In this document: piece after piece, positions 3,230-23,002 of the stretch
Layout of the letters: each line of letters starts with the position of its first letter
How positions within the stretch are numbered: position 1 is the first letter of the stretch
Assembly: GCF_013167455.1 (NCBI RefSeq)
Contig: NZ_CP038328.1
Reading direction: 5' to 3' (one strand)
Length of the DNA: 64,000 nucleotides
Source: Escherichia coli O157:H7
Lineage (GTDB): Bacteria; Pseudomonadota; Gammaproteobacteria; Enterobacterales; Enterobacteriaceae
Translations under genes and position numbers: made by a program
The notes under the pieces: generated by a model
What the model was told of the DNA's origin: nothing
Databases searched by the model: none
The model's input: the letters and a program-made list of their open reading frames with translations, nothing else

Positions 3230-3279
3230 AACAGCCAACTTGTGAAACAGGCACGGAAATCCGTGCCCCAAAAGAGAAA

Positions 3280-5523
3280 TTAGAAACGGAAGGTTGCGGT
3301 TGCAACGACCTGACGTTCTGCGCCCCAGAAGCAGCCATAAGTGTTAAAGCAGCTGGCGACGTATTCACGATCGAACAGGTTGTTAACATGCAGCGCCACG
3401 TTGGAGCCCGCCATGCCGACTCGCGCCAGATCATAACGCACTAACGCATCCACGACCGTATAACTTCCCACTTTAAAGGAGTTAGCCGGATCACCATAGC
3501 TGGAGCCAGTATAACGACCACCGGTGCCCAGCGTCAGACCTGAAAGCGGACCGTCAAAGAAGGTATAGTCAGCCCACAGCGAAGCCATGTGTTTTGGCAC
3601 CTGTGCAGGCGTATTGCCTTTATAGGTAGTATCGGTGGTGTATTCCGCATCGGTGTAAGTATAAGAACCGACTACGTTAACACTCGCCGACAGCGCCGCT
3701 TTCGCTTCGATTTCTACGCCACGTGCGCGGATCTCGCCACCTTCAACCGAGAAGAAGGAACCCTCAGGGTCCGCCATCAGGTTGTTGGTTTTAGTGAGAT
3801 TATACACGGCACCAGTAACTACAATCGGACGATCTTCCGGTACATATTTCACGCCGACTTCATACTGCTTACCTTTAGACGGTGCGAAAATATTACCATC
3901 CTTCCCAACTTGCGAAGAAGGTTCAAACGATTCGCTATAGCTAAAGTAAGGTGTTACGCCATTATCAAACAGGTAGTTAACACCACCACGCCAGGTAAAC
4001 TGTTTGTCATCACGTTTATCGGTCGTCCCGGCAACGCGGTTAAGAGATTCTTGATCTGCCCAGTCATAACGACCGCCCAGGGTGACCAGCACTTTATCCC
4101 ACTGCGCCTGATCCTGAACATAAACGCCCGTTTGTTTCTGCTTATTCAGAATGCGGTAAGGGCCGGAGTTTGCCGGATCTTTGGCATTGAAGTCGAAATC
4201 GGTATTCACCGGATTGTACAGATCGAGCAGCGGTACGGAGTCGTCGTAACCAAACCAGGCGTTGATGTCATTACGCATACGCATAAAGTCGACACCGGTC
4301 AGCAGGGTGTGGTCGATATCGCCAGTGGCAAACTTGCTCTGCAACTGGGTATCAACGGAGAAGTTTTGCAGCTTCTCATCATCAACGACGTATTTACGTG
4401 CCAGATAATGGCCTTTATCCGCTGGCGCTAATGCCGCACACTGTTTGCTGTAAGCATTCGCCGGATCGGAGCAGACGCCGTAACCATAAACGCTGTTTTG
4501 CGAGGTTTTGTTTTCAGCAAAGCGCAGGTTCTGACGCACAGTAAAGGTGTCGTTAAATTCGTGATCGAAGCTGTAGCCCACCATCTTCTCATTACGAGAA
4601 TAGGTGTTGTTCTTCGCCCCTTCGTTAAAGTCTGTCGGCAGACGCTTACCGTTCGGCAGCGGCTCAACGGTTCCCTCTTTCGGCAACCAGCCGTAATAAC
4701 CGGTTTCCGGCTCGTTCTGGAAGTAAGAAAGGAAGGTGAAATTGGTTTTATCATCCGGACGCCAGGTGAACGCCGGTGCAATAGCATAACGCTGCTCTTC
4801 TGACCCTTTCTGCTGGGCATTGGCAGAACGCGCAAGACCGGTCAGGCGATAAGAGTAAACGCCGTCATCATCCAGCGCATCGCTAAAGTCAAAACCAGTC
4901 TGGAACAGGCTGTCAGTACCGGCTTTAAACTGAACTTCTTTCAGCGGTTCGGTGGTCGGACGCTTGCTGACCATATTCAACAGGCCGCCAGGACTGCTTT
5001 TACCGTAAAGCACGGAAACCGGGCCACGCATAATTTCAGCGCGTTCCAGCATATACGGATCAATGACCGCATCGTTATAGAAGTTGCCCTGCAACTTCAG
5101 GCCATTCAGATAGTTATTCTGGCTTTGGCCTTCTGCCGCAAAACCGCGAATGATCAGGTGGTCATAGGTGTTGGATGCGCCACGCGTACCAACAGAGACA
5201 CCCGGCGTGTAGCTAAGCGCTTCTTTTACCGACTTCGGCTGATGCAGCGCCATCTCTTCGGCGGTCACAACAGAAATAGACTGTGGCACTTTTTGAATCG
5301 GCGTATCGGTTTTAGTGCCGGTAGCTGACTGTCGCGCCGCAATAGTTGCAGCAGGCCCCCATGCGCTTTCTTGCGGCGCAGGTGCAGCGGTAACGGTGAT
5401 AGTGTCTTCTTTCGGTTCAACCGCTGCCTGTGCATAAACAGACATGCCGCTAACCGCTGTGGCTACTACAACTGCGATTTTACGCAGTGAGTGTTTTGGC
5501 TGAGCAGTTTTGGAACGCGCCAT
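3280..5523 (-). CDS. fhuA: TonB-dependent ferrichrome outer membrane receptor FhuA
   Basis: 747 aa ORF with signal peptide, TonB-box region and C-terminal ATFRF barrel terminus. Confidence 0.95.
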   Translation of the reverse strand: MARSKTAQPKHSLRKIAVVVATAVSGMSVYAQAAVEPKEDTITVTAAPAPQESAWGPAATIAARQSATGTKTDTPIQKVPQSISVVTAEEMALHQPKSVKEALSYTPGVSVGTRGASNTYDHLIIRGFAAEGQSQNNYLNGLKLQGNFYNDAVIDPYMLERAEIMRGPVSVLYGKSSPGGLLNMVSKRPTTEPLKEVQFKAGTDSLFQTGFDFSDALDDDGVYSYRLTGLARSANAQQKGSEEQRYAIAPAFTWRPDDKTNFTFLSYFQNEPETGYYGWLPKEGTVEPLPNGKRLPTDFNEGAKNNTYSRNEKMVGYSFDHEFNDTFTVRQNLRFAENKTSQNSVYGYGVCSDPANAYSKQCAALAPADKGHYLARKYVVDDEKLQNFSVDTQLQSKFATGDIDHTLLTGVDFMRMRNDINAWFGYDDSVPLLDLYNPVNTDFDFNAKDPANSGPYRILNKQKQTGVYVQDQAQWDKVLVTLGGRYDWADQESLNRVAGTTDKRDDKQFTWRGGVNYLFDNGVTPYFSYSESFEPSSQVGKDGNIFAPSKGKQYEVGVKYVPEDRPIVVTGAVYNLTKTNNLMADPEGSFFSVEGGEIRARGVEIEAKAALSASVNVVGSYTYTDAEYTTDTTYKGNTPAQVPKHMASLWADYTFFDGPLSGLTLGTGGRYTGSSYGDPANSFKVGSYTVVDALVRYDLARVGMAGSNVALHVNNLFDREYVASCFNTYGCFWGAERQVVATATFRF

Positions 5524-8472: not shown

Positions 8473-10902
8473 TTACGAATACTTTTTCGTCCGTCGCGTC
8501 GGTGCCGTGTTTGCCGGGTCGTCCGGCCAGACGTGTTTGGGATAACGCCCTTTCATCTCCTTTTGCACCTCACGATACGCCCCTTTCCAGAAGGCCCCCA
8601 AATCACGCGTGATTTGCAGCGGCCTTTGGGCGGGTGAAAGCAATTCCAGCACCAGCGGCACGCGCCCCTGGGCGATCGTCGGATTAGTGGCCTCACCAAA
8701 CATCTCCTGCATTCTCACCGCCAGCGCGGGCGGGTTATCTTCATGATAACGAATGGCGATCCGGCTTCCCGTCGGCACAGTGTAATGCGCAGGCAATTCA
8801 CTATCCAGACGTTGCTGCATTCCCCAATCAAGTAATCCGCGTAGTGCCTGATAAATGTCGAGTGATTTCAGGCCGCGTAGTGAATGTACACCGGCCATAT
8901 GTGGCAGCAGCCACGTTTCCAGCGTCGCCAACAAACTTTCATCATCAACCGCTGGCCAGTCATATTCTGGCAACCACTTTCCGGCGCATAACAAACGCAA
9001 GCGTAGCTGTTCCGCTTCCGCCGTCCAGTTGAGCACGCTTAAACCTTTATCACGGATGCCGTTAAGCATCGCCTGATGCAACTCGTCTTCTGACGGTTTC
9101 GCCAACGGCTGCACTTTCACCGTCAACTGACCGATTTGCAGCCGACGCCAGGCTTTCAGCGTACCTTGCGCGTCATCCCATTCCACGGTGTCAGATTGCT
9201 GCACCAGCTGCGGACAGCGTTGTACTAATTCATCAATATCGACCGGTAACGCCAGTAAAATCCGCGCATCCGGCGAGGCGCTGCCCTGCAATAATAACGG
9301 CGCGATCAACCATTCGTGGCGACTTAGCGCGTCGTCGGCATCAAGCATCGCCCCCATGCCGTTTGCCAGTTGATAGCGTCCATCTTGCCCACGGCGGCGA
9401 GCAATGCGATCGGCAAACGCCCCGGCAAGTAGCGGCGCGATAAGCGAACTGTCTGCCTCACCGCCGCGTACGTTTAAGCGTTTTAACAGTTGCTGACTAC
9501 GTTGCTGCCAGGCTGGTTGATTGCGCGAAAACGCCACGCCCAGGTCACTATTGCCCATCCGTGGCGGCTCTTCGAGAATGGCGGCAATTTTTGCCGCGGT
9601 AGCAGCTTCGTCGTCGCTCTTTGCGCTAACCAGCATTGCCGCTAAACGCGGATCGTTACCCAGCGCTGCCATTTTTTGCCCTTGCGCACTAAGCCGTTCA
9701 CCGTCCAGCGCCCCCAGCATTTGTAACAGACGTTTCGCGGCCAGTAGATTCACCGTTGGCGGTTGATCCAGCCAGCTCATCTGCGCCGGATCGCTGCATC
9801 CCCATTGCAGTAATTCCATCAGCAAACCGGAAAGATCGCTTTGTAAGATCTCCGGTTCACTTTGCGCGGTAGCGCGTTCTGCTTGTTCTTTGGCGATTAA
9901 ATGCAGGCAGATACCCGGCTCCAGACGCCCGGCGCGCCCGGCACGCTGCGTCATCGACGCCTGACTGATTCGCTGAGTAATCAACCGCGTAAGCCCTGTT
10001 CGCGGATCAAAACGCGCCACCCTTTCCTGGGCACAATCCACCACCAGACGAATACCTTCAATGGTTAAACTGGTTTCAGCAATATTGGTCGCCAGCACCA
10101 CTTTGCGCATCCCTTGCGGTGCCGGGAGGATCGCTTTTCGCTGATCGTTCAGCGACAACGCGCCATACAGCGGGCAGAGCAATACATCACTGCCGATGCG
10201 CGAAGCCAGTTGTTCCTGCACACGCTGAATTTCTCCGACGCCAGGTAAAAATAACAGTAATGATCCGCTTTCCTGACGCAGCATTTCAGCGGTGGCTACC
10301 GCAACGGCATCGTCAAAACGCTGATGCGTGGGCAGCGGTAAATAACGGCGTTCAACCGGAAACGAGCGCCCTTCTGAGATGACGACGGGCGCTTCTGGCA
10401 GCATTTGCTGCAAGCGGTCGTTGTCCAGCGTAGCCGACATAATCAGCAGTTTAAGGTCATCACGCAGACCTTGTTGCACATCGAGTAACAGCGCCAACGC
10501 CAAATCCGCCTGCAAGCTACGCTCATGAAATTCATCAAGGATCACCAATCCAACACCGCTCAGTTCCGGGTCACGCTGGATCATCCGCGTCAGCACGCCT
10601 TCGGTAACTACTTCCAGGCGGGTATTCGGCCCGACGCAGTTTTGCGCACGCATCCGGTAGCCAACGGTATCGCCTGGCTTTTCGTTAAGCAGCTCCGCCA
10701 GCCGTTGCGCGACGTTACGCGCCGCCAGACGCCGTGGCTCCAGGAGGATAATTTTCCCGTTAATGCCGGGATGCGCCAGCAGTTGCAGCGGCAGCCAGGT
10801 TGATTTCCCGGCCCCGGTCGGCGCACTTAATAATACCTGCGGCGCATAATCGAGAGCGGTAAGTAATTCAGGTAACACGGCAGCAACGGGCAACGACGAC
10901 AC
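8473..10902 (-). CDS. hrpB: ATP-dependent RNA helicase HrpB (DEAH-box)
   Basis: ORF 8473..10947 (824 aa); Walker A SAPTGAGKST near N-terminus. Start placed at the GTG 15 codons in (VSSLPVAAVLPE, 809 aa) from recollection of the K-12 protein; the upstream ATG at 10947 is the alternative. Confidence 0.85.
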   Translation of the reverse strand: MSSLPVAAVLPELLTALDYAPQVLLSAPTGAGKSTWLPLQLLAHPGINGKIILLEPRRLAARNVAQRLAELLNEKPGDTVGYRMRAQNCVGPNTRLEVVTEGVLTRMIQRDPELSGVGLVILDEFHERSLQADLALALLLDVQQGLRDDLKLLIMSATLDNDRLQQMLPEAPVVISEGRSFPVERRYLPLPTHQRFDDAVAVATAEMLRQESGSLLLFLPGVGEIQRVQEQLASRIGSDVLLCPLYGALSLNDQRKAILPAPQGMRKVVLATNIAETSLTIEGIRLVVDCAQERVARFDPRTGLTRLITQRISQASMTQRAGRAGRLEPGICLHLIAKEQAERATAQSEPEILQSDLSGLLMELLQWGCSDPAQMSWLDQPPTVNLLAAKRLLQMLGALDGERLSAQGQKMAALGNDPRLAAMLVSAKSDDEAATAAKIAAILEEPPRMGNSDLGVAFSRNQPAWQQRSQQLLKRLNVRGGEADSSLIAPLLAGAFADRIARRRGQDGRYQLANGMGAMLDADDALSRHEWLIAPLLLQGSASPDARILLALPVDIDELVQRCPQLVQQSDTVEWDDAQGTLKAWRRLQIGQLTVKVQPLAKPSEDELHQAMLNGIRDKGLSVLNWTAEAEQLRLRLLCAGKWLPEYDWPAVDDESLLATLETWLLPHMAGVHSLRGLKSLDIYQALRGLLDWGMQQRLDSELPAHYTVPTGSRIAIRYHEDNPPALAVRMQEMFGEATNPTIAQGRVPLVLELLSPAQRPLQITRDLGAFWKGAYREVQKEMKGRYPKHVWPDDPANTAPTRRTKKYS

Positions 10903-12885: not shown

Positions 12886-12914
12886 AGGCGGGAAATGCTC
12901 CCGCCTTATTTTTT
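12886..12914 (+). terminator. dksA intrinsic terminator; its loop contains the first in-frame ATG of gluQ
   Basis: Stem aggcggga / tcccgcct with loop aatgc, followed by a T-run (tattttttg), immediately after the dksA stop. Confidence 0.7.
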
Positions 12915-13821
12915 GTTCAAAGAGATGACAGACACACAGTATATTGGCCGCTTCGCCCCCTCTCCTTCCGGCGAGCTTCATTTTGGTTCTCTGATTGCTG
13001 CGCTTGGCAGCTATTTGCAGGCTCGCGCCCGGCACGGTCGCTGGCTGGTACGCATTGAAGATATCGACCCGCCTCGTGAAGTTCCCGGTGCCGCAGAAAC
13101 TATCCTGCGCCAGCTGGAACATTACGGTCTGCACTGGGACGGCGATGTTCTCTGGCAATCGCAACGTCACCACGCCTATCGTGAAGCACTCGCCTGGTTA
13201 CATGAACAAGGACTAAGTTATTACTGCACCTGCACGCGTGCGCGTATTCAAAGCATTGGCGGTATTTACGACGGTCATTGCCGGGTGTTGCATCATGGAC
13301 CAGACAACGCCGCAGTGCGTATCCGCCAGCAGCATCCGGTCACGCAATTTACTGACCAGCTGCGCGGCATTATTCACGCCGACGAAAAACTGGCACGGGA
13401 AGATTTTATTATTCATCGCCGTGATGGTTTGTTTGCCTATAACCTGGCGGTGGTGGTGGATGATCACTTCCAGGGCGTGAGCGAAATTGTCCGCGGGGCA
13501 GATTTGATCGAACCGACAGTGCGGCAAATCTCGCTGTACCAGCTTTTTGGCTGGAAAGTGCCAGATTACATTCATCTGCCGCTGGCGCTTAATCCACAAG
13601 GCGCTAAACTTTCCAAGCAGAATCATGCGCCTGCGTTGCCGAAAGGCGATCCACGCCCGGTACTAATCGCGGCACTTCAATTTCTGGGGCAGCAGGCAGA
13701 AGCACACTGGCAGGATTTCAGCGTCGAGCAAATCCTTCAGTCAGCCGTCAAAAACTGGCGGCTTACCGCAGTGCCTGAGTCGGCAATTGTAAATTCAACA
13801 TTCTCAAATGCGTCATGCTGA
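12895..13821 (+). CDS. gluQ: Glutamyl-Q tRNA(Asp) synthetase (GluRS paralog)
   Basis: 308 aa ORF, class I aaRS fold with HFGS-type motif (GELHFGSL). The first ATG sits in the dksA terminator loop; the ATG at 12925 (MTDTQYIG) is an alternative start. Confidence 0.88.
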
Positions 13822-13880: not shown

Positions 13881-15278
13881 ATTTTTACCCGAGTCGCTAA
13901 TTTTTGCCGCAAGGTGCTAAGCCGCGAGGAAAGCGAGGCTGAACAGGCAGTCGCCCGTCCACAGGTGACGGTGATCCCGCGTGAGCAGCATGCTATTTCC
14001 CGCAAAGATATCAGTGAAAATGCCCTGAAGGTAATGTACAGGCTCAATAAAGCGGGATACGAAGCCTGGCTGGTTGGCGGCGGCGTGCGCGACCTGTTAC
14101 TCGGCAAAAAGCCGAAAGATTTTGACGTAACCACTAACGCCACGCCTGAGCAGGTGCGCAAACTGTTCCGTAACTGCCGCCTGGTGGGTCGCCGTTTCCG
14201 TCTGGCTCATGTGATGTTTGGCCCGGAGATTATCGAAGTTGCGACCTTCCGTGGACACCACGAAGGTAACGTCAGCGACCGCACGACCTCCCAACGCGGG
14301 CAAAACGGCATGTTGCTGCGCGACAACATTTTCGGCTCCATCGAAGAAGACGCCCAGCGCCGCGATTTCACTATCAACAGCCTGTATTACAGCGTAGCGG
14401 ATTTTACCGTCCGTGATTACGTTGGCGGTATGAAGGATCTGAAGGACGGTGTTATCCGTCTGATTGGTAACCCGGAAACGCGCTACCGTGAAGATCCGGT
14501 ACGTATGCTGCGCGCAGTACGTTTTGCCGCCAAATTGGGTATGCGCATCAGCCCGGAAACCGCAGAACCGATCCCTCGCCTCGCTACCCTGCTGAACGAT
14601 ATCCCACCGGCACGCCTGTTTGAAGAATCGCTTAAACTGCTACAAGCGGGCTACGGTTACGAAACCTATAAGCTGTTGTGTGAATATCATCTGTTCCAGC
14701 CGCTGTTCCCGACCATTACCCGCTACTTCACGGAAAATGGCGACAGCCCGATGGAGCGGATCATTGAACAGGTGCTGAAGAATACCGATACGCGTATCCA
14801 TAACGATATGCGCGTGAACCCGGCGTTCCTGTTTGCCGCCATGTTCTGGTACCCACTGCTGGAGACGGCACAGAAGATCGCCCAGGAAAGCGGCCTGACC
14901 TATCACGACGCTTTCGCGCTGGCGATGAACGACGTGCTGGACGAAGCCTGCCGTTCACTGGCAATCCCGAAACGTCTGACGACGTTAACCCGCGATATCT
15001 GGCAGTTGCAGTTGCGTATGTCCCGACGTCAGGGTAAACGCGCATGGAAATTGCTGGAGCATCCTAAGTTCCGTGCGGCTTATGACCTGTTGGCCTTGCG
15101 AGCTGAAGTTGAGCGTAACGCTGAACTGCAGCGTCTGGTGAAATGGTGGGGTGAGTTCCAGGTTTCCGCGCCACCAGACCAAAAAGGGATGCTCAACGAG
15201 CTGGATGAAGAACCGTCACCGCGTCGTCGTACTCGTCGTCCACGCAAACGCGCACCACGTCGTGAGGGTACCGCATGA
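13881..15278 (+). CDS. pcnB: Poly(A) polymerase I
   Basis: ORF 13860..15278 begins with TTG; start placed at the in-frame ATT ([11 protein letters not shown]), the non-canonical AUU start remembered for pcnB, giving 465 aa. Nucleotidyltransferase motif [17 protein letters not shown]; basic C-terminal tail. Confidence 0.85.
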
Positions 15279-15757
15279 CAGTGGCGTATATTGCCATAGG
15301 CAGCAATCTGGCCTCTCCGCTGGAGCAGGTCAATGCTGCCCTGAAAGCATTAGGCGATATCCCTGAAAGCCACATTCTTACCGTTTCTTCGTTTTACCGC
15401 ACCCCACCGCTGGGGCCGCAAGATCAACCCGATTACTTAAACGCAGCCGTGGCGCTGGAAACAACACTTGCGCCTGAAGAATTACTTAATCACACACAGC
15501 AAATAGAGTTGCAGCAAGGTCGCGTTCGTAAAGCAGAACGCTGGGGACCGCGCACACTCGATCTTGATATCATGTTGTTTGGTAATGAAACCATTAATAC
15601 CGAACGACTCACCGTCCCGCATTACGATATGAAGAATCGCGGCTTTATGCTGTGGCCGCTGTTTGAGATTGCCCCGGAACTCGTGTTTCCTGATGGGGAG
15701 ACATTACGTGAAATACTCACTTCGCTAGCAGTACTACAACCTGCCATCTGGTATTAG
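15275..15757 (+). CDS. folK: 7,8-dihydro-6-hydroxymethylpterin pyrophosphokinase (HPPK)
   Basis: 160 aa [29 protein letters not shown] matches FolK; overlaps pcnB stop. The last ~13 residues ([13 protein letters not shown]) differ from the K-12 C-terminus as I recall it. Confidence 0.9.
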
Positions 15758-16037
15758 CTGTATTATTTTATTTTCTTATCTTACTCCTCACTTCCCCTCT
15801 TACAGATTAAATATACTTAATTTACATTTTAGTTTTTTTTAATTAATTCATGAAATAGCACTTCATGCAAATAGATTAGGCATTTTTTGTTTAAAAAACC
15901 TAGAATAGCAACAATTCAATACACCACGTAAATATATTCACACCCGTGATAATTCACCCCTATTACATCCTCCAAAAACTTTGAGTAATATCCGCTCGCA
16001 ATATTAATTTCATATAATTTTTGTAAGGATGCATGTA
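15758..16037 (+). promoter_or_regulatory. AT-rich leader/promoter region of the yad fimbrial operon
   Basis: ~280 bp of strongly AT-rich DNA with poly-T/poly-A tracts directly upstream of the fimbrial major subunit gene; the nucleoid-protein silencing typical of fimbrial promoters is inferred, not seen. Confidence 0.5.
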
Positions 16038-16634
16038 ATGAAAAAAGCACTTCTCGCAGCCGCTCTGGTTATGGCTTCTGGTTCCGCCCTGGCTGTAGAT
16101 GGTGGTCATATCGACTTTAACGGTATGGTACAGTCCGGTACCTGTAAAGTGGGTGTGGTAGATACTGGTATGCATAGCGTTACCACTGATGGCGTGGTTA
16201 CCCTGGATACTGCGAATGTTACTGATACTTTTGCTGAAGTTAGCGCAACTGCTGTCGGTTTACTGCCGAAAGAGTTCATGATTTCTGTTGAGTGTGATCC
16301 AGGTGCTCCGAAGAATGCTGAGTTAACTATGGGTTCTGCAAGTTACGCGAACACCAGCGGTACCCTGAATAACAATATGAACATCACTGTTAACGGTATT
16401 GCACCGGCTCAGAACGTAAACATTGCAGTTCATAACATGAAAAACAAAGCTGGCGCTGCTGAAATTAAGCAGGTCCATATGAACAACTCTTCTGAAGTTC
16501 AGGAACTGACATTAGACGCAGAAGGTAAAGGCCAGTACGTATTTAACGCATCTTACGTTAAAGCACCGAACAGCCCGGCTGTAACTGCTGGTCATGTAAC
16601 CACTAACGCGCTGTACACCGTTGCTTATAAGTAA
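16038..16634 (+). CDS. yadN: Fimbrial major subunit (type 1 pilin family), yadN position
   Basis: ORF 16029..16634; start trimmed to MKKALLAAALVMASGSALA signal peptide. First gene of a chaperone-usher operon; Cys pair typical of pilins. Appears divergent from the K-12 allele. Confidence 0.8.
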   Translation: MKKALLAAALVMASGSALAVDGGHIDFNGMVQSGTCKVGVVDTGMHSVTTDGVVTLDTANVTDTFAEVSATAVGLLPKEFMISVECDPGAPKNAELTMGSASYANTSGTLNNNMNITVNGIAPAQNVNIAVHNMKNKAGAAEIKQVHMNNSSEVQELTLDAEGKGQYVFNASYVKAPNSPAVTAGHVTTNALYTVAYK

Positions 16635-16651
16635 TTGATGGTGTGTTGAGC

Positions 16652-16684
16652 ATAAGGTTTGCCAGCAGGCAAACCTTATTTTCG
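16652..16684 (+). terminator. Intrinsic terminator/attenuator after the major pilin gene
   Basis: Perfect 12-bp stem ataaggtttgcc / ggcaaaccttat with loop agca, followed by ttttcg; the position matches attenuators that set pilin:assembly-protein stoichiometry. Confidence 0.7.
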
Positions 16685-16720
16685 CGAATTTAATCTTTCT
16701 ACAGACAGCAAGGAGTGCTT

Positions 16721-17446
16721 ATGTTTCCCTTGGTTAAAAAAACGGTTAGTGCATTATTTGTGAGTACTCTGTTAGCCAGTGCACCAGCATTCGCTGACAT
16801 TATTATTTCCGGAACACGTATCATTTATAACGCTGATAAAAAAGATGTTAACGTTCGTCTGGAAAATAAAGGGAATCGCCCCTTACTGATTCAGAACTGG
16901 TTGGATACGGGCGATGACAATGCCGATCCCAGCCAGATCAAAGTGCCGTTTACCGCGACCCCACCAGTTTCACGCGTGGAGCCAAAACGCGGTCAAACCG
17001 TAAAAGTGATGTATACCGGTGCAACAGCCCTGCCGAAAGACCGTGAAAGCGTCTACTGGTTTAACGTGCTGGAAGTGCCGCCTAAGCCGAAAGATGCTGA
17101 GGCTGACAAAAACTTGTTACAGCTGGCTTTCCGCACACGCATCAAACTCTTTTATCGCCCGAGTGGGTTACAGGGAGAACCGGCTGAAGCACCGGCGAAA
17201 ATCACCTGGAAATTAAACAACGCTCAGTTACAGGCAAATAACCCAACGCCATATTACGTGTCCTTTAATGAGGTCAAGCTGGAAAGCGGCGGCAAAACCT
17301 ACAACGTCAATTCCAGCATGGTCACGCCGTTCAGCCAGGCAAGCTTTGGCGTAACCAGTCTGCCAGGAAGCGTGTCATCCGGAAAAGTGGTCTTTAAAGC
17401 GATCAACGACTTTGGCGGCAACATTGATGGTTCCGCAACATTCTAA
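16721..17446 (+). CDS. yadV: Periplasmic fimbrial chaperone (PapD-like)
   Basis: ORF 16715..17446; ATG at 16721 has a good SD (aggag, 5 nt spacer). Chaperone motifs ISGTRIIY, LIQNWLDTGDD, FWFNVLEVPP, RTRIKLFYRP. Confidence 0.88.
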   Translation: MFPLVKKTVSALFVSTLLASAPAFADIIISGTRIIYNADKKDVNVRLENKGNRPLLIQNWLDTGDDNADPSQIKVPFTATPPVSRVEPKRGQTVKVMYTGATALPKDRESVYWFNVLEVPPKPKDAEADKNLLQLAFRTRIKLFYRPSGLQGEPAEAPAKITWKLNNAQLQANNPTPYYVSFNEVKLESGGKTYNVNSSMVTPFSQASFGVTSLPGSVSSGKVVFKAINDFGGNIDGSATF

Positions 17447-17487
17447 AAAATAAACGGATTCTTTTTAACATCGCCAGGAATGCAACC

Positions 17488-20088
17488 TTGTACCAGTTTA
17501 CTCATCAAAAAAGCCGTATCCCGAAAAAAACGCTACTTGCGGCCTGTTGTGCCCTGTTTTATAGCAGCAACGGTGCTGCGGCGGACACCGTGGAATATGA
17601 CAGTTCCTTTTTAATGGGAACTGGCGCATCAACGATTGATGTTAAACGTTATGCTCAAGGCAACCCGACACCGCCGGGTCTCTATAATGTCCGCGTATTT
17701 GTAAACGGTCAGGCGACTTCCAGCTTAGAAATTCCGTTTGTGGATATTGGCGAAAACAGTGCGGCGGCCTGTCTTACCCATAAAAACCTGGCGCAACTTC
17801 ACATTAAGCAACCTGAACAGCCTGTCACTTTACTCGCCAGAGAAGGTGAAGAAGAGGATTGTCTGGATCTGGCAAAGTCATACGAAAAGGCGGATGTGTG
17901 CTTTGACGGTAGTGACCAGTTTCTCGATCTGACGATCCCTCAGGCCTATGTTCTGAAAAGCTATGGCGGCTACGTTGACCCTTCTTTATGGGAATCGGGA
18001 ATTAACGCTGCCACACTGGCATATACCCTGAACGCGTATCACACAAGTTCAGATAACGACAATAGTGACAGCGTCTATGGCGCGTTCAACTCAGGTATCA
18101 ATTTAGGAGCCTGGCACTTTCGTGCGCGCGGTAACTATAACTGGACAACAGATAACGGCAGCGATTTCGATTTCCAGGATCGTTACTTACAGCGTGACAT
18201 TCCGGCAATCCGTTCCCAGATAATTATGGGTGATGCCTATACCACCGGTGAAACGTTTGACTCTGTCAACGTCCGTGGTGTTCGCCTGTACAGCGACAGC
18301 CGTATGCTGCCTTCGGCGCTGGCCAGTTACGCTCCGACCATCCGCGGTGTAGCAAACTCCAACGCCAAAGTCACCGTGACGCAAAGCGGATATAAAATTT
18401 ATGAAACCACCGTTCCGCCCGGTGAATTTGTTATAGACGACATTAGCCCTTCCGGCTTTGGTAGCGAACTGGTCGTGACCATTGAAGAAGCGGATGGTTC
18501 CAAACGCACCTTTACGCAACCCTTCTCGTCGGTTGTACAAATGCAACGTCCTGGTGTGGGCCGTTGGGATTTCAGCGCGGGTAAAGTCATTGATGACAGT
18601 CTGCGATCCGAACCCAATATGGGGCAAGCCTCTTATTACTATGGTCTGAATAACCTCTTCACGGGTTATACCGGCATTCAGTTCACCGATAATAACTATC
18701 TTGCCGGGCTGTTAGGTGTGGGTATCAACACCAGCATCGGCGCCTTTGCGGTAGACGTTACCCATTCCCGTGCTGAAATTCCGGATGATAAAACCTACCA
18801 GGGGCAAAGTTATCGCGTGACCTGGAACAAACTTTTCCAGGATACCGGGACATCATTTAACCTCGCGGCGTACCGCTATTCCACCCAGGATTACCTGGGC
18901 CTGCATGATGCGTTAGTCCTCATTGACGACGCCAAGCATTTGTCTGCCGATGAAGACAAAAACACCATGCAGACGTACTCACGTATGAAAAACCAGTTTA
19001 CCGTCAGCATTAACCAGCCATTGAATATCGCCTATGAAGATTACGGTTCGCTGTTTATTTCCGGTAGCTGGACGTATTACTGGGCGGCGAACAATAGCCG
19101 CACTGAATATAATGTTGGTTACAGTAAAAGCGTTTCGTGGGGCAGTTTCAGCGTCAACCTACAACGTAGCTGGAATGAAGACGGCGAGAAAGATGACGCG
19201 ATGTACGTCAGCGTTAGCGTACCTATTGAGAATATTTTAGGTGGCAAACGTAAGTCTTCTGGTTTCCGCAATTTAAATACTCAGCTCAATACCGATTTCG
19301 ATGGTTCACATCAGTTGAATGTTAACAGTTCCGGTAACACTGAAAACAATCTGGTGAACTACAGTGTCAACGCAGGTTATAGCCTCGATAAAAACGCCGG
19401 CGATTTAGCCTCTGTTGGTGGTTATCTCAACTATGAATCTGGGTTAGGCGGTATTTCCGCTTCGGCCTCGGCCACTTCTGATAACAGCCAACAGTACTCC
19501 ATCTCAACCGATGGCGGCTTTGTATTACACAGTGGTGGTTTAACGTTCACTAACAACAGTTTCAGCAGTAACGACACGCTGGTGTTAATCAACGCCCTAG
19601 GTGCTAAAGGCGCACGAATCAATAACAGTAATAACGAAATCGATCGCTGGGGATATGCCGTGACGTCCTCTGTCAGCCCATATCGTGAAAACCGGGTAGG
19701 TCTGAACATTGAAACACTGGAAAACGATGTTGAACTGAAAAGTACCAGCGCCACCACCGTACCACGTAGCGGCTCCGTTGTTTTGACCCGTTTCGAAACT
19801 GACGAGGGGCGTTCTGCCGTGCTGAATATTACTGCCGCCAATGGCAAATCCATTCCGTTTGCTGCGGAGGTTTACCAGGGTGAGGTGATGATCGGCAGCA
19901 TGGGCCAGGGTGGTCAGGCATTTGTACGCGGTATTAACGACAGCGGGGAATTAATCGTGCGCTGGTATGAAAACAACCAAACCATTGACTGTAAGTTGCA
20001 CTACCAGTTCCCGGCGCAGCCACAAACGCAGGGAAGCACCAACACCTTATTACTTAACAATCTTACCTGTCAGGTAGCAAATCACTAA
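17488..20088 (+). CDS. htrE: Outer membrane fimbrial usher
   Basis: 866 aa ORF, apparent TTG start; usher-family sequence throughout (GYKIYETTVPPGEFVIDD, RVGLNIETLENDVELK). Positional ortholog of htrE. Confidence 0.88.
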   Translation: MYQFTHQKSRIPKKTLLAACCALFYSSNGAAADTVEYDSSFLMGTGASTIDVKRYAQGNPTPPGLYNVRVFVNGQATSSLEIPFVDIGENSAAACLTHKNLAQLHIKQPEQPVTLLAREGEEEDCLDLAKSYEKADVCFDGSDQFLDLTIPQAYVLKSYGGYVDPSLWESGINAATLAYTLNAYHTSSDNDNSDSVYGAFNSGINLGAWHFRARGNYNWTTDNGSDFDFQDRYLQRDIPAIRSQIIMGDAYTTGETFDSVNVRGVRLYSDSRMLPSALASYAPTIRGVANSNAKVTVTQSGYKIYETTVPPGEFVIDDISPSGFGSELVVTIEEADGSKRTFTQPFSSVVQMQRPGVGRWDFSAGKVIDDSLRSEPNMGQASYYYGLNNLFTGYTGIQFTDNNYLAGLLGVGINTSIGAFAVDVTHSRAEIPDDKTYQGQSYRVTWNKLFQDTGTSFNLAAYRYSTQDYLGLHDALVLIDDAKHLSADEDKNTMQTYSRMKNQFTVSINQPLNIAYEDYGSLFISGSWTYYWAANNSRTEYNVGYSKSVSWGSFSVNLQRSWNEDGEKDDAMYVSVSVPIENILGGKRKSSGFRNLNTQLNTDFDGSHQLNVNSSGNTENNLVNYSVNAGYSLDKNAGDLASVGGYLNYESGLGGISASASATSDNSQQYSISTDGGFVLHSGGLTFTNNSFSSNDTLVLINALGAKGARINNSNNEIDRWGYAVTSSVSPYRENRVGLNIETLENDVELKSTSATTVPRSGSVVLTRFETDEGRSAVLNITAANGKSIPFAAEVYQGEVMIGSMGQGGQAFVRGINDSGELIVRWYENNQTIDCKLHYQFPAQPQTQGSTNTLLLNNLTCQVANH

Positions 20089-20089
20089 T

Positions 20090-20650
20090 ATGGAAAATTC
20101 TATGAAAAGGATACTACTAACATCCGCGTTAATAGGCCTGGGTTTACCGGCGGTTGGCTCTGCAACAGATCTTAATGTCGATTTTACGGCCACCGTATTA
20201 GCCACCACCTGCACGATAACTATAGTGGAAGATGGTGGTCCAGCAGTGACCGGTAGTAACGATGAATACAGCCTGACAATTCCTGATGTTGGTCTGGATA
20301 AAGTCGCTACCGCTGCGCCCGAAGCTCAGGCCAACTTTAAATTAAAGGCCTCCGATTGCAGCAATGGTTACTCAAAGATTTTTACCACACTTACAGGAAC
20401 AACGGTTTCCGGTAAGTTAATTGTTAATGAAGCAACCTCTGGCGCTGCTGGGGTGGGGATGGGGATTAAGCGTAGAGATACCGCAGACTCGACTTTCTTC
20501 ACACCCAATAATACTGACAAATTTGAATGGAGCGCCGATGAGAAAGCCAGCGGTGTGCCTCTGACCGTAGCACTGCGCGAAACAACGGCGGGAGCAGGAC
20601 GCACCGGTGCGTTTCAGGCAAAAGCCACCTTTAACTTCACCTACGAATAA
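20090..20650 (+). CDS. yadM: Fimbrial minor subunit, yadM position
   Basis: 186 aa ORF; signal peptide MKRILLTSALIGLGLPAVGSA (alternative start 20102); C-terminal pilin strand ending FNFTYE. Confidence 0.8.
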   Translation: MENSMKRILLTSALIGLGLPAVGSATDLNVDFTATVLATTCTITIVEDGGPAVTGSNDEYSLTIPDVGLDKVATAAPEAQANFKLKASDCSNGYSKIFTTLTGTTVSGKLIVNEATSGAAGVGMGIKRRDTADSTFFTPNNTDKFEWSADEKASGVPLTVALRETTAGAGRTGAFQAKATFNFTYE

Positions 20651-20664
20651 CAGGGACAGCCACC

Positions 20665-21270
20665 ATGAAATTAAAAGTCATCGCTACACTGATTGCTACT
20701 GTTGCCGTGGGTGTAAGCTTTAACAGCAATTTTGCTTCTGCGAGTACAACGTCCGCTTCTTTAACCGTAAACAGTAACCTGACTATGGGTACCTGCAGTG
20801 CTCAGATAATGGATAATAGTAATAAAGTGATCAATGAAGTGGTCTTTGGCAATGTTTATATTTCTGAACTCGGTGCAAAAAGCAAAGTGCAACAGTTTAA
20901 AATTCGCTTTAGCAATTGCTCTGGCCTTCCCCAAAACAGCGCCCAAATAGTGCTGGCACCTAATGGTATATCCTGTGCTGGTTCTCAATCGTCATCGGCG
21001 GGTTTTTCTAACAAGTTTACTGACGCTAGCGCAGCAACCAGAACGGCTGTGGAAGTATGGACTACAGATACACCGGAAAGCAATGGCAGTACGCAATTCC
21101 ATTGTGCTCAAAAGATACCAGTGCCTGTGACGCTTCCCGCCGACACCACAACTCAGCCTTACGATTACCCGTTAAGTGCACGGATGACCGTTGCGGAAGG
21201 TAGATTGGTAACCGATGTAAGACCGGGTAATTTCCGCTCTCCCACGACTTTCACGATCACTTATCAGTAA
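20665..21270 (+). CDS. yadL: Fimbrial minor subunit, yadL position
   Basis: 201 aa ORF; signal peptide; pilin-like C-terminus TFTITYQ. Confidence 0.8.
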   Translation: MKLKVIATLIATVAVGVSFNSNFASASTTSASLTVNSNLTMGTCSAQIMDNSNKVINEVVFGNVYISELGAKSKVQQFKIRFSNCSGLPQNSAQIVLAPNGISCAGSQSSSAGFSNKFTDASAATRTAVEVWTTDTPESNGSTQFHCAQKIPVPVTLPADTTTQPYDYPLSARMTVAEGRLVTDVRPGNFRSPTTFTITYQ

Positions 21271-21290
21271 TAGCGGATAAGGATATTAGA

Positions 21291-21881
21291 ATGCTATGCA
21301 GGCATCATAAAATCGTACACTTTTTAGGGCTGGCAACAGCCCTTATCACGCCTTTTGCCTATTCCGGCCAGGATGTGGATCTCACCGCAAAGATCGTGCC
21401 CAGCACCTGTCAGGTTGAAGTCAGTAATAATGGCGTTGTCGATCTCGGCACAGTGACGCTGGACTATTTTGCCGACAATGTAACCCCGACAACGGATTAT
21501 GCGGGTGGCAAAACGTTTAATGTGAATGTGGTCTCTTGCGATAACATTCAAACGACACAGTCGCAAATGAAATTAGATTTTCAGCCGCAGGCGGGATCGC
21601 TTGCACAGGCGAATAATCAAATTTTTAGTAATGAATATGAACAGCAGGCTACCGGGGCGAAAAACGTCGGCATTGTGATTTTTTCGGCCCAACCGAATCA
21701 GCAGACATTTAACGTGCGAGGAACGGATGGTTCCTCAACAGCAATTTATTCGGTAGCACCTGGCAATGCTGTTCCCTCAACCTGGACCTTTTATTCCCGT
21801 ATGCAGCGGGTGAATAATGCCCTTCCTCCTGAATCGGGAATGGTGAGAAGCCAGGTTATTGTTAACGTATCTTACGAATAA
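21291..21881 (+). CDS. yadK: Fimbrial minor subunit, yadK position
   Basis: 196 aa ORF with SD aagga upstream; pilin-like C-terminus VIVNVSYE. Confidence 0.8.
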   Translation: MLCRHHKIVHFLGLATALITPFAYSGQDVDLTAKIVPSTCQVEVSNNGVVDLGTVTLDYFADNVTPTTDYAGGKTFNVNVVSCDNIQTTQSQMKLDFQPQAGSLAQANNQIFSNEYEQQATGAKNVGIVIFSAQPNQQTFNVRGTDGSSTAIYSVAPGNAVPSTWTFYSRMQRVNNALPPESGMVRSQVIVNVSYE

Positions 21882-21892
21882 TAAGGATAATT

Positions 21893-23002
21893 ATGCAAAG
21901 GAAAGGCAATAAACTGTTGATTCAGTTATGCAGTGTGATACTGCTATTTTTTACCACATCCTGGTATGCATTGGCGAATGAATGTTATATAGAGAGAAAT
22001 GCTGAAGGGGATTATCACATGAAGATAAGCTCTACTCAGCTTAGTCTGGCGTCACAAATGGTCGAGGTTCCGACAGAAATAGCCGAAGCTACATGGGATG
22101 TAAATATTCAACTAAGAGGCGATGCCATAGGGTGTAAATCTCTTGGGGATAGTAAGGCAGTTCACTTTCTTAATACAGCTGACCCAAGTTTAATATCCAC
22201 GTACACCACAACGAATGGCGCAGCGTTATTAAAAACAACTGTTCCAGGCATTGTGTATTCTGTCGAGTTATTATGCCTTAGTTGTGGTGCCGCAGATGAA
22301 CTTGATTTATGGCTACCTGCACAAAGTGGCGCAGATAACTTCATACCAAGCACCCAGACGAAATGGGCCTATGAGTACAGTGATCAAAGTTGGTATTTAC
22401 GTTTTCGCTTATTCATAACTCCTGAATTTAAACCCAAGAATGGTGTTTCCAGCGGAACAACGATAGCAGGAAAGATTGCGTCATGGTATATAGGTACCAA
22501 TGACCAGCCGTGGATCAACTTTTACATTGACAATGACTCTTTAAAGTTTTTCGTCGATGAACCGACCTGTGCAACAGTTGCCCTGGCACAAGATCAGGGC
22601 AACGTCAGTGGCAATCAGGTAACGCTTGGGAACAGCTATGTTTCGGAAGTGAAAAATGGGCTTACGCGGGAAATCCCTTTTTCTATCCGTGCTGAATACT
22701 GTTATGCCAGTAAAATTACGGTTAAGTTGAAAGCGGCAAATAAACCCAGCGATGCCACACTGGTGGGTAAAACGACTGGCTCGGCTTCAGGCGTGGCTGT
22801 AAAAGTAAATTCAACTTATGACAATAGCAAAGTATTGTTAAAAGCAGATGGTAGCAACACGGTTGACTACAACTTCGCCGCCTGGTCAAACAACCTGCTG
22901 TTTTTACCTTTTACGGCGCAGCTGGTACCGGATGGTAGCGGTAATGCTGTCGGTGTTGGAACATTTTCAGGTAACGCGACCTTCTCCTTTACCTACGAAT
23001 AA
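21893..23002 (+). CDS. yadC: Fimbrial tip adhesin (two-domain: N-terminal lectin-like plus C-terminal pilin domain), yadC position
   Basis: 369 aa ORF, last gene of the operon; signal peptide; C-terminal pilin strand GNATFSFTYE. Shorter than the 412 aa K-12 YadC as I recall it, so the receptor-binding domain may differ. Confidence 0.78.
   Translation: MQRKGNKLLIQLCSVILLFFTTSWYALANECYIERNAEGDYHMKISSTQLSLASQMVEVPTEIAEATWDVNIQLRGDAIGCKSLGDSKAVHFLNTADPSLISTYTTTNGAALLKTTVPGIVYSVELLCLSCGAADELDLWLPAQSGADNFIPSTQTKWAYEYSDQSWYLRFRLFITPEFKPKNGVSSGTTIAGKIASWYIGTNDQPWINFYIDNDSLKFFVDEPTCATVALAQDQGNVSGNQVTLGNSYVSEVKNGLTREIPFSIRAEYCYASKITVKLKAANKPSDATLVGKTTGSASGVAVKVNSTYDNSKVLLKADGSNTVDYNFAAWSNNLLFLPFTAQLVPDGSGNAVGVGTFSGNATFSFTYE

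What the first reader, a model, noticed from the sequence alone, without database searches (positions are those of the whole stretch)
15680..15760. folK 3' end diverges: recombination breakpoint of the fimbrial island appears to lie inside folK
FolK matches the K-12 enzyme over most of its length but ends ...[22 protein letters not shown], whereas I recall ...PDGEMLRQILHTRAFDKLNKW in K-12. A replaced C-terminal segment of an essential folate enzyme next to a variable fimbrial operon suggests the island boundary sits within the coding sequence.
Basis: partly seen in the sequence, partly recalled or inferred. Interest (0 to 1): 0.4.

Follow-up and report, generated by a model that had tools for sequence, protein, structure and literature searches.

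The report
Mosaic folK beside variable fimbrial operon
The odd end of this E. coli O157:H7 folate enzyme is real, but it is an ordinary by-product of the neighbouring fimbrial gene cluster being swapped between Escherichia lineages by recombination, which drags the last, loosely constrained part of folK along with it.

Summary
The window is E. coli O157:H7. Its FolK (15275-15757) ends ...[12 protein letters not shown], where K-12 has ...HTRAFDKLNKW.

Against K-12 there are two change points in folK. Mismatches are 8/1603 up to nt 188, 41/252 for nt 189-440 (almost all synonymous, pS 0.57, near the E. coli-Salmonella level), and 22/34 in the tail.

The recombination junction is at window ~15458-15463, about 250 bp upstream of the flagged site. 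From there through subunit, chaperone and usher, O157 matches a non-coli Escherichia (E1V33 group): 0 differences over folK nt 253-449, against 8% in pcnB.

The tail is not island-derived. It has the usual length, keeps L144, L148 and the terminal Trp, and resembles Salmonella's tail (11/18), whose folK abuts panB with no operon. It looks replaced because the last ~17 codons are nearly unconstrained (pN/pS ~0.75 versus ~0.05).

E. coli genomes hold at least six tail classes, and tail family tracked usher family in the 13 loci compared. There is no integrase, att repeat or displaced folK remnant.

This is a known kind of thing: mosaic flanks of a hypervariable surface-structure locus. Interest is low to moderate.

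The parts
15275..15757 (+). folK (HPPK) CDS, 160 aa. It is a mosaic allele.
   Evidence: ORF and translation. RefSeq annotates it as folK, WP_000215141.1. It carries PF01288 and matches solved E. coli HPPK at E~1e-94.
15275..15462 (+). 5' segment of folK (nt 1-188), typical of E. coli
   Evidence: It has 0 differences from K-12 and pS 0.00. It differs at 12 sites from the E1V33-like Escherichia, which is the species background level. In the tree for nt 1-186, O157 sits inside E. coli.
15458..15463 (.). Left recombination junction of the O157 haplotype (between folK nt 184 and 189)
   Evidence: The last site where O157 equals K-12 but differs from E1V33-like is nt 184. The first site where O157 differs from K-12 and equals E1V33-like is nt 189. 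The maximum chi-square change point falls after nt 188.
15463..15697 (+). Divergent-haplotype body of folK (nt 189-423). It is diverged at synonymous sites, and the protein is almost unchanged (S64T, R76Q, V106T).
   Evidence: Over nt 189-440 there are 41/252 mismatches to K-12. Over nt 190-423, pS is 0.57 and pN 0.031. It is identical to E1V33-like over nt 253-449. O157, EF7 and E1V33-like form a clade with 100% bootstrap outside all E. coli.
15698..15754 (+). Codons 142-160: the hypervariable C-terminal tail of FolK ([19 protein letters not shown])
   Evidence: Against K-12, pS is 0.63 and pN 0.47. Only W159 is invariant, and L144 and L148 are >=90% conserved, in 28 enterobacterial FolKs. 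At least 6 tail classes occur in E. coli. The AlphaFold model shows a helix at 144-151 followed by coil.
15752..15757 (+). TAT (Tyr160) followed by the TAG stop. The usual TAA stop after Trp159 has mutated to TAT, which adds one residue.
   Evidence: O145, Res13 and E1V33-like have TGG TAA here. O157, EF7, PSJ32 and 88-3493 have TGG TAT TAG.
15758..16037 (.). AT-rich folK-fimbrial intergenic region, part of the haplotype block. Position 15768-15777 (TTATTTTCTT) marks a 59-bp deletion between direct repeats, relative to O145, Res13 and E1V33-like.
   Evidence: GC is 29% at 15700-15899. It has no homology to K-12. It is shared by 436 genomes. The deletion is seen in the alignments. No terminator-like site was found, and the one promoter-like site is not above chance.
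16038..23002 (+). Seven-gene Yad/Sta-like (gamma-4) chaperone-usher operon. Genes: major subunit 16038-16634, chaperone 16721-17446, usher 17488-20088, subunits 20102-20650, 20665-21270 and 21291-21881, adhesin-like 21893-23002.
   Evidence: Gene coordinates come from the RefSeq annotation of an O157:H7 genome that matched the 826-nt query at 100%, with window = locus + 3274; that offset was checked at folK and panB. DNA identity to the K-12 yad operon is only 45-75%. The usher is 60% aa identical to K-12 HtrE, 98% to E1V33-like and O145, and 69% to the Salmonella operon at the same site.
23066..23400 (+). Right edge of the block. About 70 bp upstream of panB is conserved even with the empty sites of Salmonella and Citrobacter. 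It is followed by a mosaic panB 5' end (panB CDS 23137-23931).
   Evidence: Local alignment of the empty-site intergenic region to the region before panB. The first ~250 nt of panB are 78-95% identical even among strains that carry the O157-type operon, and 82-92% identical to K-12.

Best explanation
The block between folK and panB holds a chaperone-usher fimbrial operon (Yad/Sta type). In Escherichia this operon exists as several deeply diverged allelic families. Whole haplotypes are exchanged between lineages and species by homologous recombination, and the crossovers fall in the conserved flanking genes, folK on the left and panB on the right.

In the O157:H7 lineage the left crossover lies at folK nt ~184-189. 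The 3' 295 nt of folK, the intergenic region and the operon therefore all belong to a haplotype that is also carried by a non-coli Escherichia (the E1V33 group). That haplotype is about as diverged from the K-12 haplotype at synonymous sites as Salmonella is from E. coli.

The FolK protein is nearly unchanged through residue 141, because purifying selection removes amino-acid changes there. The last 17-18 residues are a short helix plus a coil, and only two Leu and the terminal Trp are conserved in them. These residues are almost free to vary, so between old haplotypes they have diverged close to saturation and look 'replaced'.

What is shown: the mosaic structure, the junction, the relationship to E1V33-like, the population distribution, the conservation pattern and the pN/pS values. 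What is inferred: that homologous recombination is the mechanism, that the tail is tolerant in function, and that selection for diversity of the fimbriae keeps the haplotype families apart. The direction and date of the exchange between E. coli and the E1V33 group are not resolved.
For: Two change points against K-12: mismatches are 8/1603, then 41/252, then 22/34. pS is 0.00, 0.57 and 0.63, and pN is 0, 0.031 and 0.47; E. coli-Salmonella pS is 0.62-0.67 in the same segment.

A scan of 100,044 species genomes with an O157-specific 26-mer hit only Escherichia sp. E1V33. In a sister genome, pcnB differs from O157 at 117/1415 sites, but folK nt 253-449 has 0 differences. The subunit, chaperone and usher region is mostly 88-98% identical in 200-nt bins, lower in the two subunit-gene bins.

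Trees: O157 sits within E. coli for pcnB and folK nt 1-186. For nt 189-423 it groups with E1V33-like at 100% bootstrap, outside E. coli, E. fergusonii and E. whittamii.

Other strains carrying the same tail and operon have nested junctions: 88-3493 at nt ~370, and O145, Res13 and LB858871 at nt ~408. USMARC-51688 is identical to K-12 up to nt ~430 and then switches to a fourth tail. The two E. fergusonii types differ only from codon ~142.

The panB 5' end is likewise mosaic. Salmonella and Citrobacter have an empty site and an O157-like tail. The tail keeps its length and L144, L148 and W159. Tail family tracked usher family in the 13 loci compared.

Alignments to HPPKs from outside the Enterobacterales and Pasteurellales end at residues 132-141. 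One complete genome has IS1 inserted in the last codons of folK, which removes the terminal Ile-Trp.
Against: O157 and E1V33-like differ at 10 sites in nt 213-252, so the sampled E1V33 group is a relative of the exchange partner, not the partner itself.

The direction of transfer is unresolved. In E1V33-like too, this segment is more diverged from K-12 (15-17%) than its own core background (8%).

The sharp step at nt 440 could in principle be an additional, older breakpoint rather than only relaxed constraint. The similar pS in body and tail (0.57 versus 0.63) argues for relaxed constraint, but the tail has only ~12 synonymous sites.

The structure model is of modest confidence (mean pLDDT 68, and below 50 for residues 155-160). 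The location of the tail relative to the active site rests on my own knowledge of HPPK structures, not on a computation made here.

Selection for fimbrial diversity was not tested.
Confidence: 0.85

Rival explanations
1. One reading: insertion or replacement of the fimbrial island cut into folK and supplied a new, unrelated C-terminal coding segment. On this view the island boundary at ~15700 creates a fusion end on an essential enzyme.
For: Nucleotide homology to K-12 is lost at window 15714, inside the CDS, and GC drops to 29% from 15700.
Against: The tail has the canonical length and the conserved L144, L148 and W159. It is 11/18 identical to the tail of Salmonella, whose folK is followed directly by panB. 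The Salmonella tail peptide aligns to the end of the O157 tail at E=3e-14. Divergence begins 250 nt further upstream, at nt 189. There is no integrase, no flanking direct repeats and no displaced folK 3' copy anywhere in the 64-kb window.
Confidence: 0.05
2. An ancient balanced polymorphism that spans species. On this view the haplotype families, including the folK tail, are older than the Escherichia species and have been kept in each species by frequency-dependent selection on the fimbriae. Recombination only erodes the flanks, and little or no recent transfer between species is involved.
For: Both tail and usher families occur within E. coli and within E. fergusonii. Usher identity between families is ~60% aa, and the O157 family is closer to the Salmonella operon (69%) than to K-12's. 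pS between haplotypes is close to Salmonella level. Within a family, divergence between species is sometimes substantial, for example 88% between the K-12 and E. fergusonii type II ushers.
Against: O157 and E1V33-like are identical over 197 nt of folK, and their ushers are 98% identical, while their core genes differ by ~8%. The E. coli USMARC type and E. fergusonii type I ushers are 94% identical. These pairs require exchange after speciation. The two views are not exclusive: the families may be old and also be exchanged.
Confidence: 0.3
3. Local relaxed selection or hypermutation in the O157 lineage's own folK, with no recombination involved.
For: O157 carries a private R76Q change at a residue that is otherwise >=90% conserved.
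Against: The changes are almost all synonymous (pN 0.031). They start abruptly after 1603 nt with 8 mismatches. They are shared site for site with a different species and with unrelated E. coli strains such as EF7-18-51 and PSJ-32-1.
Confidence: 0.01

Closest known systems
Hypervariable surface or defence loci of E. coli whose flanking core genes are dragged along. Milkman's 'bastions of polymorphism' are the rfb O-antigen region with gnd and the hsd/ICR region (described in PMC12707154; the gnd detail is from my own knowledge).
   Same: Several deeply diverged allelic classes sit at one chromosomal position. They are exchanged by homologous recombination. Synonymous divergence is elevated in the adjacent housekeeping genes and falls off with distance. 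Junctions are mosaic, and flank segments give trees that conflict with the core.
   Different: Here the locus is a fimbrial operon. The hitch-hiking zone is short, about 300 bp into folK and 250-700 bp into panB. It includes the end of an essential enzyme's coding sequence, so the protein itself is polymorphic at its C-terminus. I found no published description of this for folK.
Yad fimbriae of E. coli and Sta fimbriae of Salmonella, a gamma-4 chaperone-usher operon at the same locus (Wurpel et al. 2013, PMC3559732; PMC13245861; PMC7098969)
   Same: The position is the same, and so are the seven-gene order and the fimbrial class. The literature already treats Yad as ancient and core-associated, as corresponding to Sta, as allelically variable and as showing recombination between phylogroups.
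   Different: The O157 usher is only 60% identical to K-12 HtrE. At the 80% threshold used in PMC13245861, phylogroup E is scored as Yad-negative. The O157 operon is closer to the Salmonella operon at this site (69%) and nearly identical to that of the E1V33 group (98%).
Integrative elements that replace the 3' end of their target gene, such as prophage e14 or phage 21 in icd, and tRNA/tmRNA islands (from my own knowledge)
   Same: A housekeeping gene next to accessory DNA carries an alternative 3' end that still gives a working protein.
   Different: Those elements carry an integrase and leave a displaced copy of the original 3' end as attR. None of that is present here. The alternative end here is the diverged homologous allele, and it is not carried by an integrating element.

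Membership tests
HPPK / FolK (Pfam PF01288) | Significant match to the HPPK profile and to solved HPPK structures | tested here: met
   Homologues carry PF01288. The match to solved E. coli HPPK chains has E~1e-94 over residues 1-152.
HPPK / FolK (Pfam PF01288) | Catalytic and ligand-binding residues conserved. In numbering that counts Met1 these are the Mg-binding Asp96 and Asp98, plus His116, Tyr117, Arg122, Asn56 and Phe124. The residue roles are from my own knowledge. | tested here: met
   All of them are invariant columns in the 28-sequence alignment, which includes the O157 protein.
HPPK / FolK (Pfam PF01288) | Pyrophosphokinase activity of this allele | not testable with these tools
   Activity is inferred only from the allele being the sole folK in hundreds of viable isolates.
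Integrase-mediated island that regenerates the 3' end of its target gene (e14/icd type) | Integrase or recombinase gene within the inserted block | tested here: not met
   The block contains only seven fimbrial genes between folK and panB.
Integrase-mediated island that regenerates the 3' end of its target gene (e14/icd type) | attL/attR direct repeats, with a displaced copy of the original 3' end at the far side | tested here: not met
   Only chance repeats of 14-30 nt were found, and none flanks the block. blastn and tblastn with the folK 3' ends of O157, K-12, APEC O1 and Salmonella found no second copy in the 64-kb window.
Hypervariable locus with hitch-hiking flanks exchanged by homologous recombination | Several deeply diverged allelic classes at one chromosomal position within a species | tested here: met
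   Tail-plus-intergenic classes occur in 3063, 561, 436 and 175 of 5426 genomes. About 1190 more genomes belong to other classes, and at least 6 tail classes were seen. The usher families are ~60% identical to each other.
Hypervariable locus with hitch-hiking flanks exchanged by homologous recombination | Flanking core genes show abrupt mosaic junctions, and synonymous divergence rises towards the locus | tested here: met
   Change points fall after folK nt 188 and nt 440. The pS gradients are 0.00, 0.57, 0.63 for O157/K-12 and 0.13, 0.27, 0.87 for K-12/APEC O1. The panB 5' end is mosaic.
Hypervariable locus with hitch-hiking flanks exchanged by homologous recombination | Flank segment and adjacent core give conflicting trees | tested here: met
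   Neighbour-joining trees with 200 bootstraps.
Hypervariable locus with hitch-hiking flanks exchanged by homologous recombination | Diversity maintained by selection (frequency-dependent or niche-specific) | not testable with these tools
   Not tested. [quoted passage not shown]
Yad fimbriae in the strict sense (HtrE-type usher) | Seven-gene operon between folK and panB, in the order major subunit, chaperone, usher, three minor subunits, adhesin | tested here: met
   Annotation. Equivalent operons in relatives carry the Pfam families Fimbrial, PapD_N/PapD_C and PapC_N/Usher/PapC_C.
Yad fimbriae in the strict sense (HtrE-type usher) | Usher at least 80% identical to HtrE, the operational criterion of PMC13245861 | tested here: not met
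   The usher is 60% aa identical to K-12 HtrE. The paper scores phylogroup E as Yad-negative. The operon is best called Yad-like or Sta-like.

The most novel reading that the evidence does not exclude
The folK-panB block, including the last ~17 codons of the essential folK gene, may be a balanced polymorphism that spans species. Its haplotype families (O157/Sta-like versus K-12 Yad) would predate the Escherichia-Salmonella split and persist side by side in E. coli, E. fergusonii and other Escherichia species. The end of an essential enzyme would then be permanently locked inside a block that does not recombine.
Probability: 0.3. Interest if true: 0.45.

Novelty: new member of a known kind. Interest (0 to 1): 0.3.

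Why it matters
This matters mainly for annotation and for population genetics. First, the FolK C-terminus cannot be used as a conserved feature: E. coli alone has at least six tail classes, and every solved E. coli HPPK structure that matched in the PDB search has the K-12 tail. Second, folK and panB alleles are unreliable phylogenetic markers near this locus. Third, the O157 'Yad' operon is a different allelic family from K-12 Yad, and screens based on identity thresholds miss it. Fourth, the locus is a compact, well-delimited example of haplotype exchange between Escherichia species, with nested junctions that could be used to study where crossovers resolve. For HPPK as a drug target, it suggests that the last ~17 residues are dispensable for catalysis and should not be targeted.

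Tried and rejected
1. Integrative-island model (e14/icd type). I searched for att repeats, a displaced folK 3' copy and an integrase and found none.

2. Regulatory signals. I looked for a folK terminator or a yad promoter in 15600-16100. There were no terminator-like sites, and the single promoter-like site is not above the shuffled expectation.

3. Donor of the folK patch among named species. Salmonella, Citrobacter, E. fergusonii, E. whittamii and two other Escherichia lineages are all <=87.5% identical in nt 186-425. Only the E1V33 group matched. The locus returned by the genome scan was cut inside folK, so I recovered the full region through the exact sequence of the neighbouring fimbrial subunit.

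4. Cluster look-up for the O157 FolK. It gave only E. coli names and said nothing about origin.

5. Literature. Searches for folK with yadN, for folK with panB and fimbria, and for E1V33 returned nothing relevant to the tail or the mosaic. A search for an open-access description of the HPPK structure gave nothing usable.

6. AlphaFold model from a 28-sequence alignment. Mean pLDDT was only 68, and below 50 for residues 155-160. I used it only for the 144-151 helix and did not take it to fold searches.

7. The four tail-plus-intergenic queries account for 4235 of 5426 genomes. I did not enumerate the remaining classes beyond two examples.

Full report
**Observation.** The window is E. coli O157:H7: an 826-nt query starting at folK is 100% identical to many O157:H7 chromosomes. 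folK is the ORF at 15275..15757 (+). It encodes 160 aa and ends ...[23 protein letters not shown]. FolK of K-12 W3110 is 159 aa and ends ...FPDGEMLRQILHTRAFDKLNKW.

**Where identity to K-12 changes.** A sliding comparison from sfsA to panC shows three levels.
- Identity is 99-100% through pcnB and the first ~185 nt of folK.
- It is 81-89% for window ~15460-15714.
- After 15714 the sequences cannot be aligned.
- The fimbrial operon is only 45-75% identical.
- Homology returns about 10 bp upstream of the panB start, at 85-87%, and stays somewhat depressed (mostly 94-98%, with dips to 86-89%) through panB and panC.

The mismatch counts are 8/1603 (pcnB to folK nt 188), 41/252 (nt 189-440) and 22/34 (nt 441-474). 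Maximum chi-square change points fall after nt 188 (window 15462; 211 against at most 34 in permutations) and after nt 440 (window 15714; 355 against at most 25). The first step, 250 nt upstream, is the actual haplotype junction.

**Nature of the divergence.** Between O157 and K-12, pS is 0.00 in codons 1-62, 0.57 in codons 64-141 and 0.63 in codons 142-158. The matching pN values are 0, 0.031 and 0.47. In the same body segment, E. coli against Salmonella gives pS 0.62-0.67. The 3' two-thirds of O157 folK is therefore almost as old, relative to the K-12 allele, as the split between the two genera. The protein is held constant up to Gly141 and drifts almost freely after it (pN/pS ~0.75 against ~0.05). 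Because pS is similar in body and tail, the collapse of identity at nt 440 is best explained by loss of protein constraint, not by a second, unrelated piece of DNA.

**The tail is homologous, not foreign.** I aligned 28 enterobacterial FolKs.
- Every tail has the same length, give or take one to three residues.
- Trp159 is invariant.
- Leu144 and Leu148 are at least 90% conserved.
- Everything else in the tail varies.

Salmonella enterica and Citrobacter have folK followed by panB about 120 bp later, with no fimbrial operon. Their tails are LTLRQQLTLLAVEKPASW and ISLHQLLTHLGAAKPAHW. The O157 tail matches the Salmonella tail at 11 of 18 positions, and the K-12 tail matches it at 7 of 18. In tblastn, the Salmonella tail peptide aligns to the very end of O157 folK, while the K-12 peptide stops at residue 28 of 35. 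Relative to outgroups without the operon, the O157-type tail is the conservative form and the K-12-type tail is the more derived one.

About 65-70 bp upstream of panB is conserved between the empty sites and E. coli. Nothing after the folK stop is conserved. The fimbrial block therefore sits downstream of the stop codon.

**Population picture.** The O157-type tail plus intergenic region occurs in 436 of 5426 complete genomes. These include O157:H7, O55:H7, O145 and various non-STEC strains. The other classes counted are:
- K-12/B1 type: 3063 genomes.
- APEC O1 type: 561 genomes.
- USMARC-51688 type: 175 genomes.

About 1190 genomes carry still other types. Two of those were sampled (...TALGNLLKINKFHELNKW and ...TILENLLRKNKFHELNKW), which brings the count to at least six tail classes.

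The tails fall into two families. One has the pattern L-T-x-L-x-x-x-Q/K-P-x-x-W, and the other has L-H/Q/K-x-x-x-F-x-x-L-x-K-W. These families track the usher families in all 13 loci compared.
- The ushers of O157, O145 and E1V33-like are 98% identical to each other.
- They are 81-82% identical to USMARC and E. fergusonii type I.
- They are 69% identical to E. whittamii and to the Salmonella operon at the same site.
- They are only 60% identical to the K-12, O26, APEC O1, E. fergusonii type II and Esp_P84 family.

Both families occur within E. coli and within E. fergusonii.

**Relatives of the O157 haplotype.** None of the named species in my panel is closer than 87.5% to folK nt 186-425 of O157. 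I scanned one genome per species for 100,044 species with an O157-specific 26-mer. The only hit was Escherichia sp. E1V33. A sister genome (GCA_004323655.1) gave the whole region. The comparison with O157 runs as follows.
- pcnB differs at 117/1415 sites (8.3%), and the other flanking core genes are 84-97% identical.
- folK nt 1-188 differs at 12 sites.
- nt 213-252 differs at 10 sites.
- nt 253-449 has no differences.
- The tail differs at 3 sites.
- The fimbrial subunit, chaperone and usher region is mostly 88-98% identical in 200-nt bins, lower in the two subunit-gene bins.
- The minor-subunit and adhesin end is much less similar.

O157 equals K-12 and differs from E1V33-like up to nt 184. 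From nt 189 it differs from K-12 and equals E1V33-like. This places the junction at window 15458-15463.

Neighbour-joining trees agree. For pcnB and for folK nt 1-186, O157 sits inside E. coli. For nt 189-423, O157, EF7-18-51 and E1V33-like form a clade with 100% bootstrap on a long branch outside E. coli, E. fergusonii and E. whittamii.

The direction of transfer is not resolved. In E1V33-like this segment is also more diverged from K-12 (15-17%) than its core background.

**Nested junctions.** Other strains that carry the same tail and operon keep less of the diverged flank.
- Strain 88-3493 switches at nt ~370.
- O145, Res13 and LB858871 switch at nt ~408.
- USMARC-51688 is identical to K-12 up to nt ~430 and then carries a different tail, one related to E. 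fergusonii type I.
- The two E. fergusonii types differ only from codon ~142: body pS is 0.02-0.04 and tail pS is 0.69.

The first ~250 nt of panB is equally mosaic, even among strains with identical folK. This is the pattern expected when a diverged block is exchanged by homologous recombination and its flanks are progressively eroded. The last conserved stretch, around the FPDG codons, acts as the innermost possible crossover site.

**Tolerance of the tail.**
- Alignments of the O157 protein to HPPKs from outside the Enterobacterales and Pasteurellales, including bifunctional HPPK-DHPS enzymes, end at residues 132-141.
- An AlphaFold model shows a helix at 144-151 followed by coil. Its confidence is modest: mean pLDDT 68, and below 50 for residues 155-160.
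- In strain LB858871 an IS1 end lies directly after ...CCTGCC (codons 155-156), so the annotated FolK ends ...LAVLQTCR and lacks the otherwise invariant Trp.
- It is my own knowledge, not something tested here, that the catalytic loops and ligand-binding residues of E. coli HPPK all lie before residue ~124 and that folK is essential in K-12.

**Rejected model.** Elements such as e14 in icd give a housekeeping gene a new 3' end. They carry an integrase and leave a displaced copy of the old end. Here the block holds only seven fimbrial genes. No repeat flanks it. No second copy of any folK 3' end exists in the window.

**What is known.** Wurpel et al. 2013 classed Yad as a core-associated gamma-4 operon, equivalent to Salmonella Sta at the same locus, and inferred that it is ancient. 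A 2026 study found Yad subtypes and recombination between phylogroups. At an 80% HtrE threshold it scored phylogroup E as Yad-negative, which fits the 60% usher identity found here. The O157 Sakai operon (ECs0139-0145) has been expressed and imaged as 'Yad'. The general phenomenon of hypervariable loci with diverged flanks is Milkman's 'bastions of polymorphism'. I found nothing on the FolK tail or on the mosaic structure of folK.

**Verdict.** It is misplaced by about 250 nt and wrong about the origin of the tail. This is a further example of a known kind of locus, with a neat detail: an essential enzyme has a species-level polymorphic C-terminus that is linked to the type of the neighbouring fimbrial operon. 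Interest is low to moderate.

Noticed in passing
window 15752-15757: The extra C-terminal Tyr of O157 FolK comes from a point change in the stop codon. O145, Res13 and E1V33-like have TGG TAA. O157, EF7-18-51, PSJ-32-1 and 88-3493 have TGG TAT TAG.
   Followed up: yes
window 15768-15777: O157 lacks 59 bp that are present directly after the folK stop in O145, Res13 and E1V33-like. The missing piece is bounded by a 10-bp direct repeat (TTATTTTCTT), which suggests a slippage deletion.
   Followed up: partly
window 15500-15502 (codon 76): O157 FolK has Gln at residue 76, where Arg is at least 90% conserved among 28 enterobacterial FolKs. E1V33-like has Arg. This is a private change of the O157-type allele, and its consequence is unknown.
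   Followed up: no
window ~13375-13575 (inside gluQRS, 12895-13821); also 12925-13075: A short patch is only 81-92% identical to K-12, inside a gene that is otherwise 99-100% identical. A milder patch (94-96%) lies 400 bp upstream. These are probably separate small recombination imports.
   Followed up: no
window ~24795-25090 (between panC and rpnC): O157 has about 225 nt here that K-12 lacks. Related genomes annotate a truncated hypothetical gene at this position.
   Followed up: no
window 23137-23400 (panB 5' end), and 23725-23875 and 24125-24275: The panB 5' end is mosaic even among strains with identical folK (78-95% identity in 60-nt bins). Further dips to 86-89% against K-12 occur in the panB 3' part and in panC.
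   Followed up: partly
L011 10030-10060 (E. coli LB858871): The inverted repeat of IS1 starts right after folK codon 156, and most of the fimbrial operon is deleted. The annotated FolK ends ...LAVLQTCR and lacks the invariant terminal Trp. An extra A in a CAAA run could be a real frameshift or a sequencing error.
   Followed up: partly
L005, L007, L008, L012, L025, L026: The fimbrial operon is often decayed by IS1, IS3 or ISApl1 insertions and deletions, and these insertions frequently lie within 15-90 bp of the folK stop. O26:H11 strain 11368 (L003) has an internal stop in its adhesin gene.
   Followed up: no
L006 (E. coli A3, from a bat) 8595-10468: This strain's pcnB 3' end clusters with E. 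fergusonii. Its folK is 97.8% identical to E. fergusonii in nt 1-185 and 95.4% in nt 186-425. Yet it carries the B2-type tail and a B2-type operon. This is another mosaic between species at the same junction.
   Followed up: partly
L003 10189-10423 (O26:H11 folK nt 189-423): The B1-type folK body is closer to E. fergusonii (93.8%) than to K-12 (90.4%) and clusters with E. fergusonii in the tree. The common alleles at this locus are therefore mosaic too.
   Followed up: no
window 15758-16037: No intrinsic terminator is predicted between folK and the first fimbrial gene, so read-through from pcnB-folK into the operon is possible.
   Followed up: no
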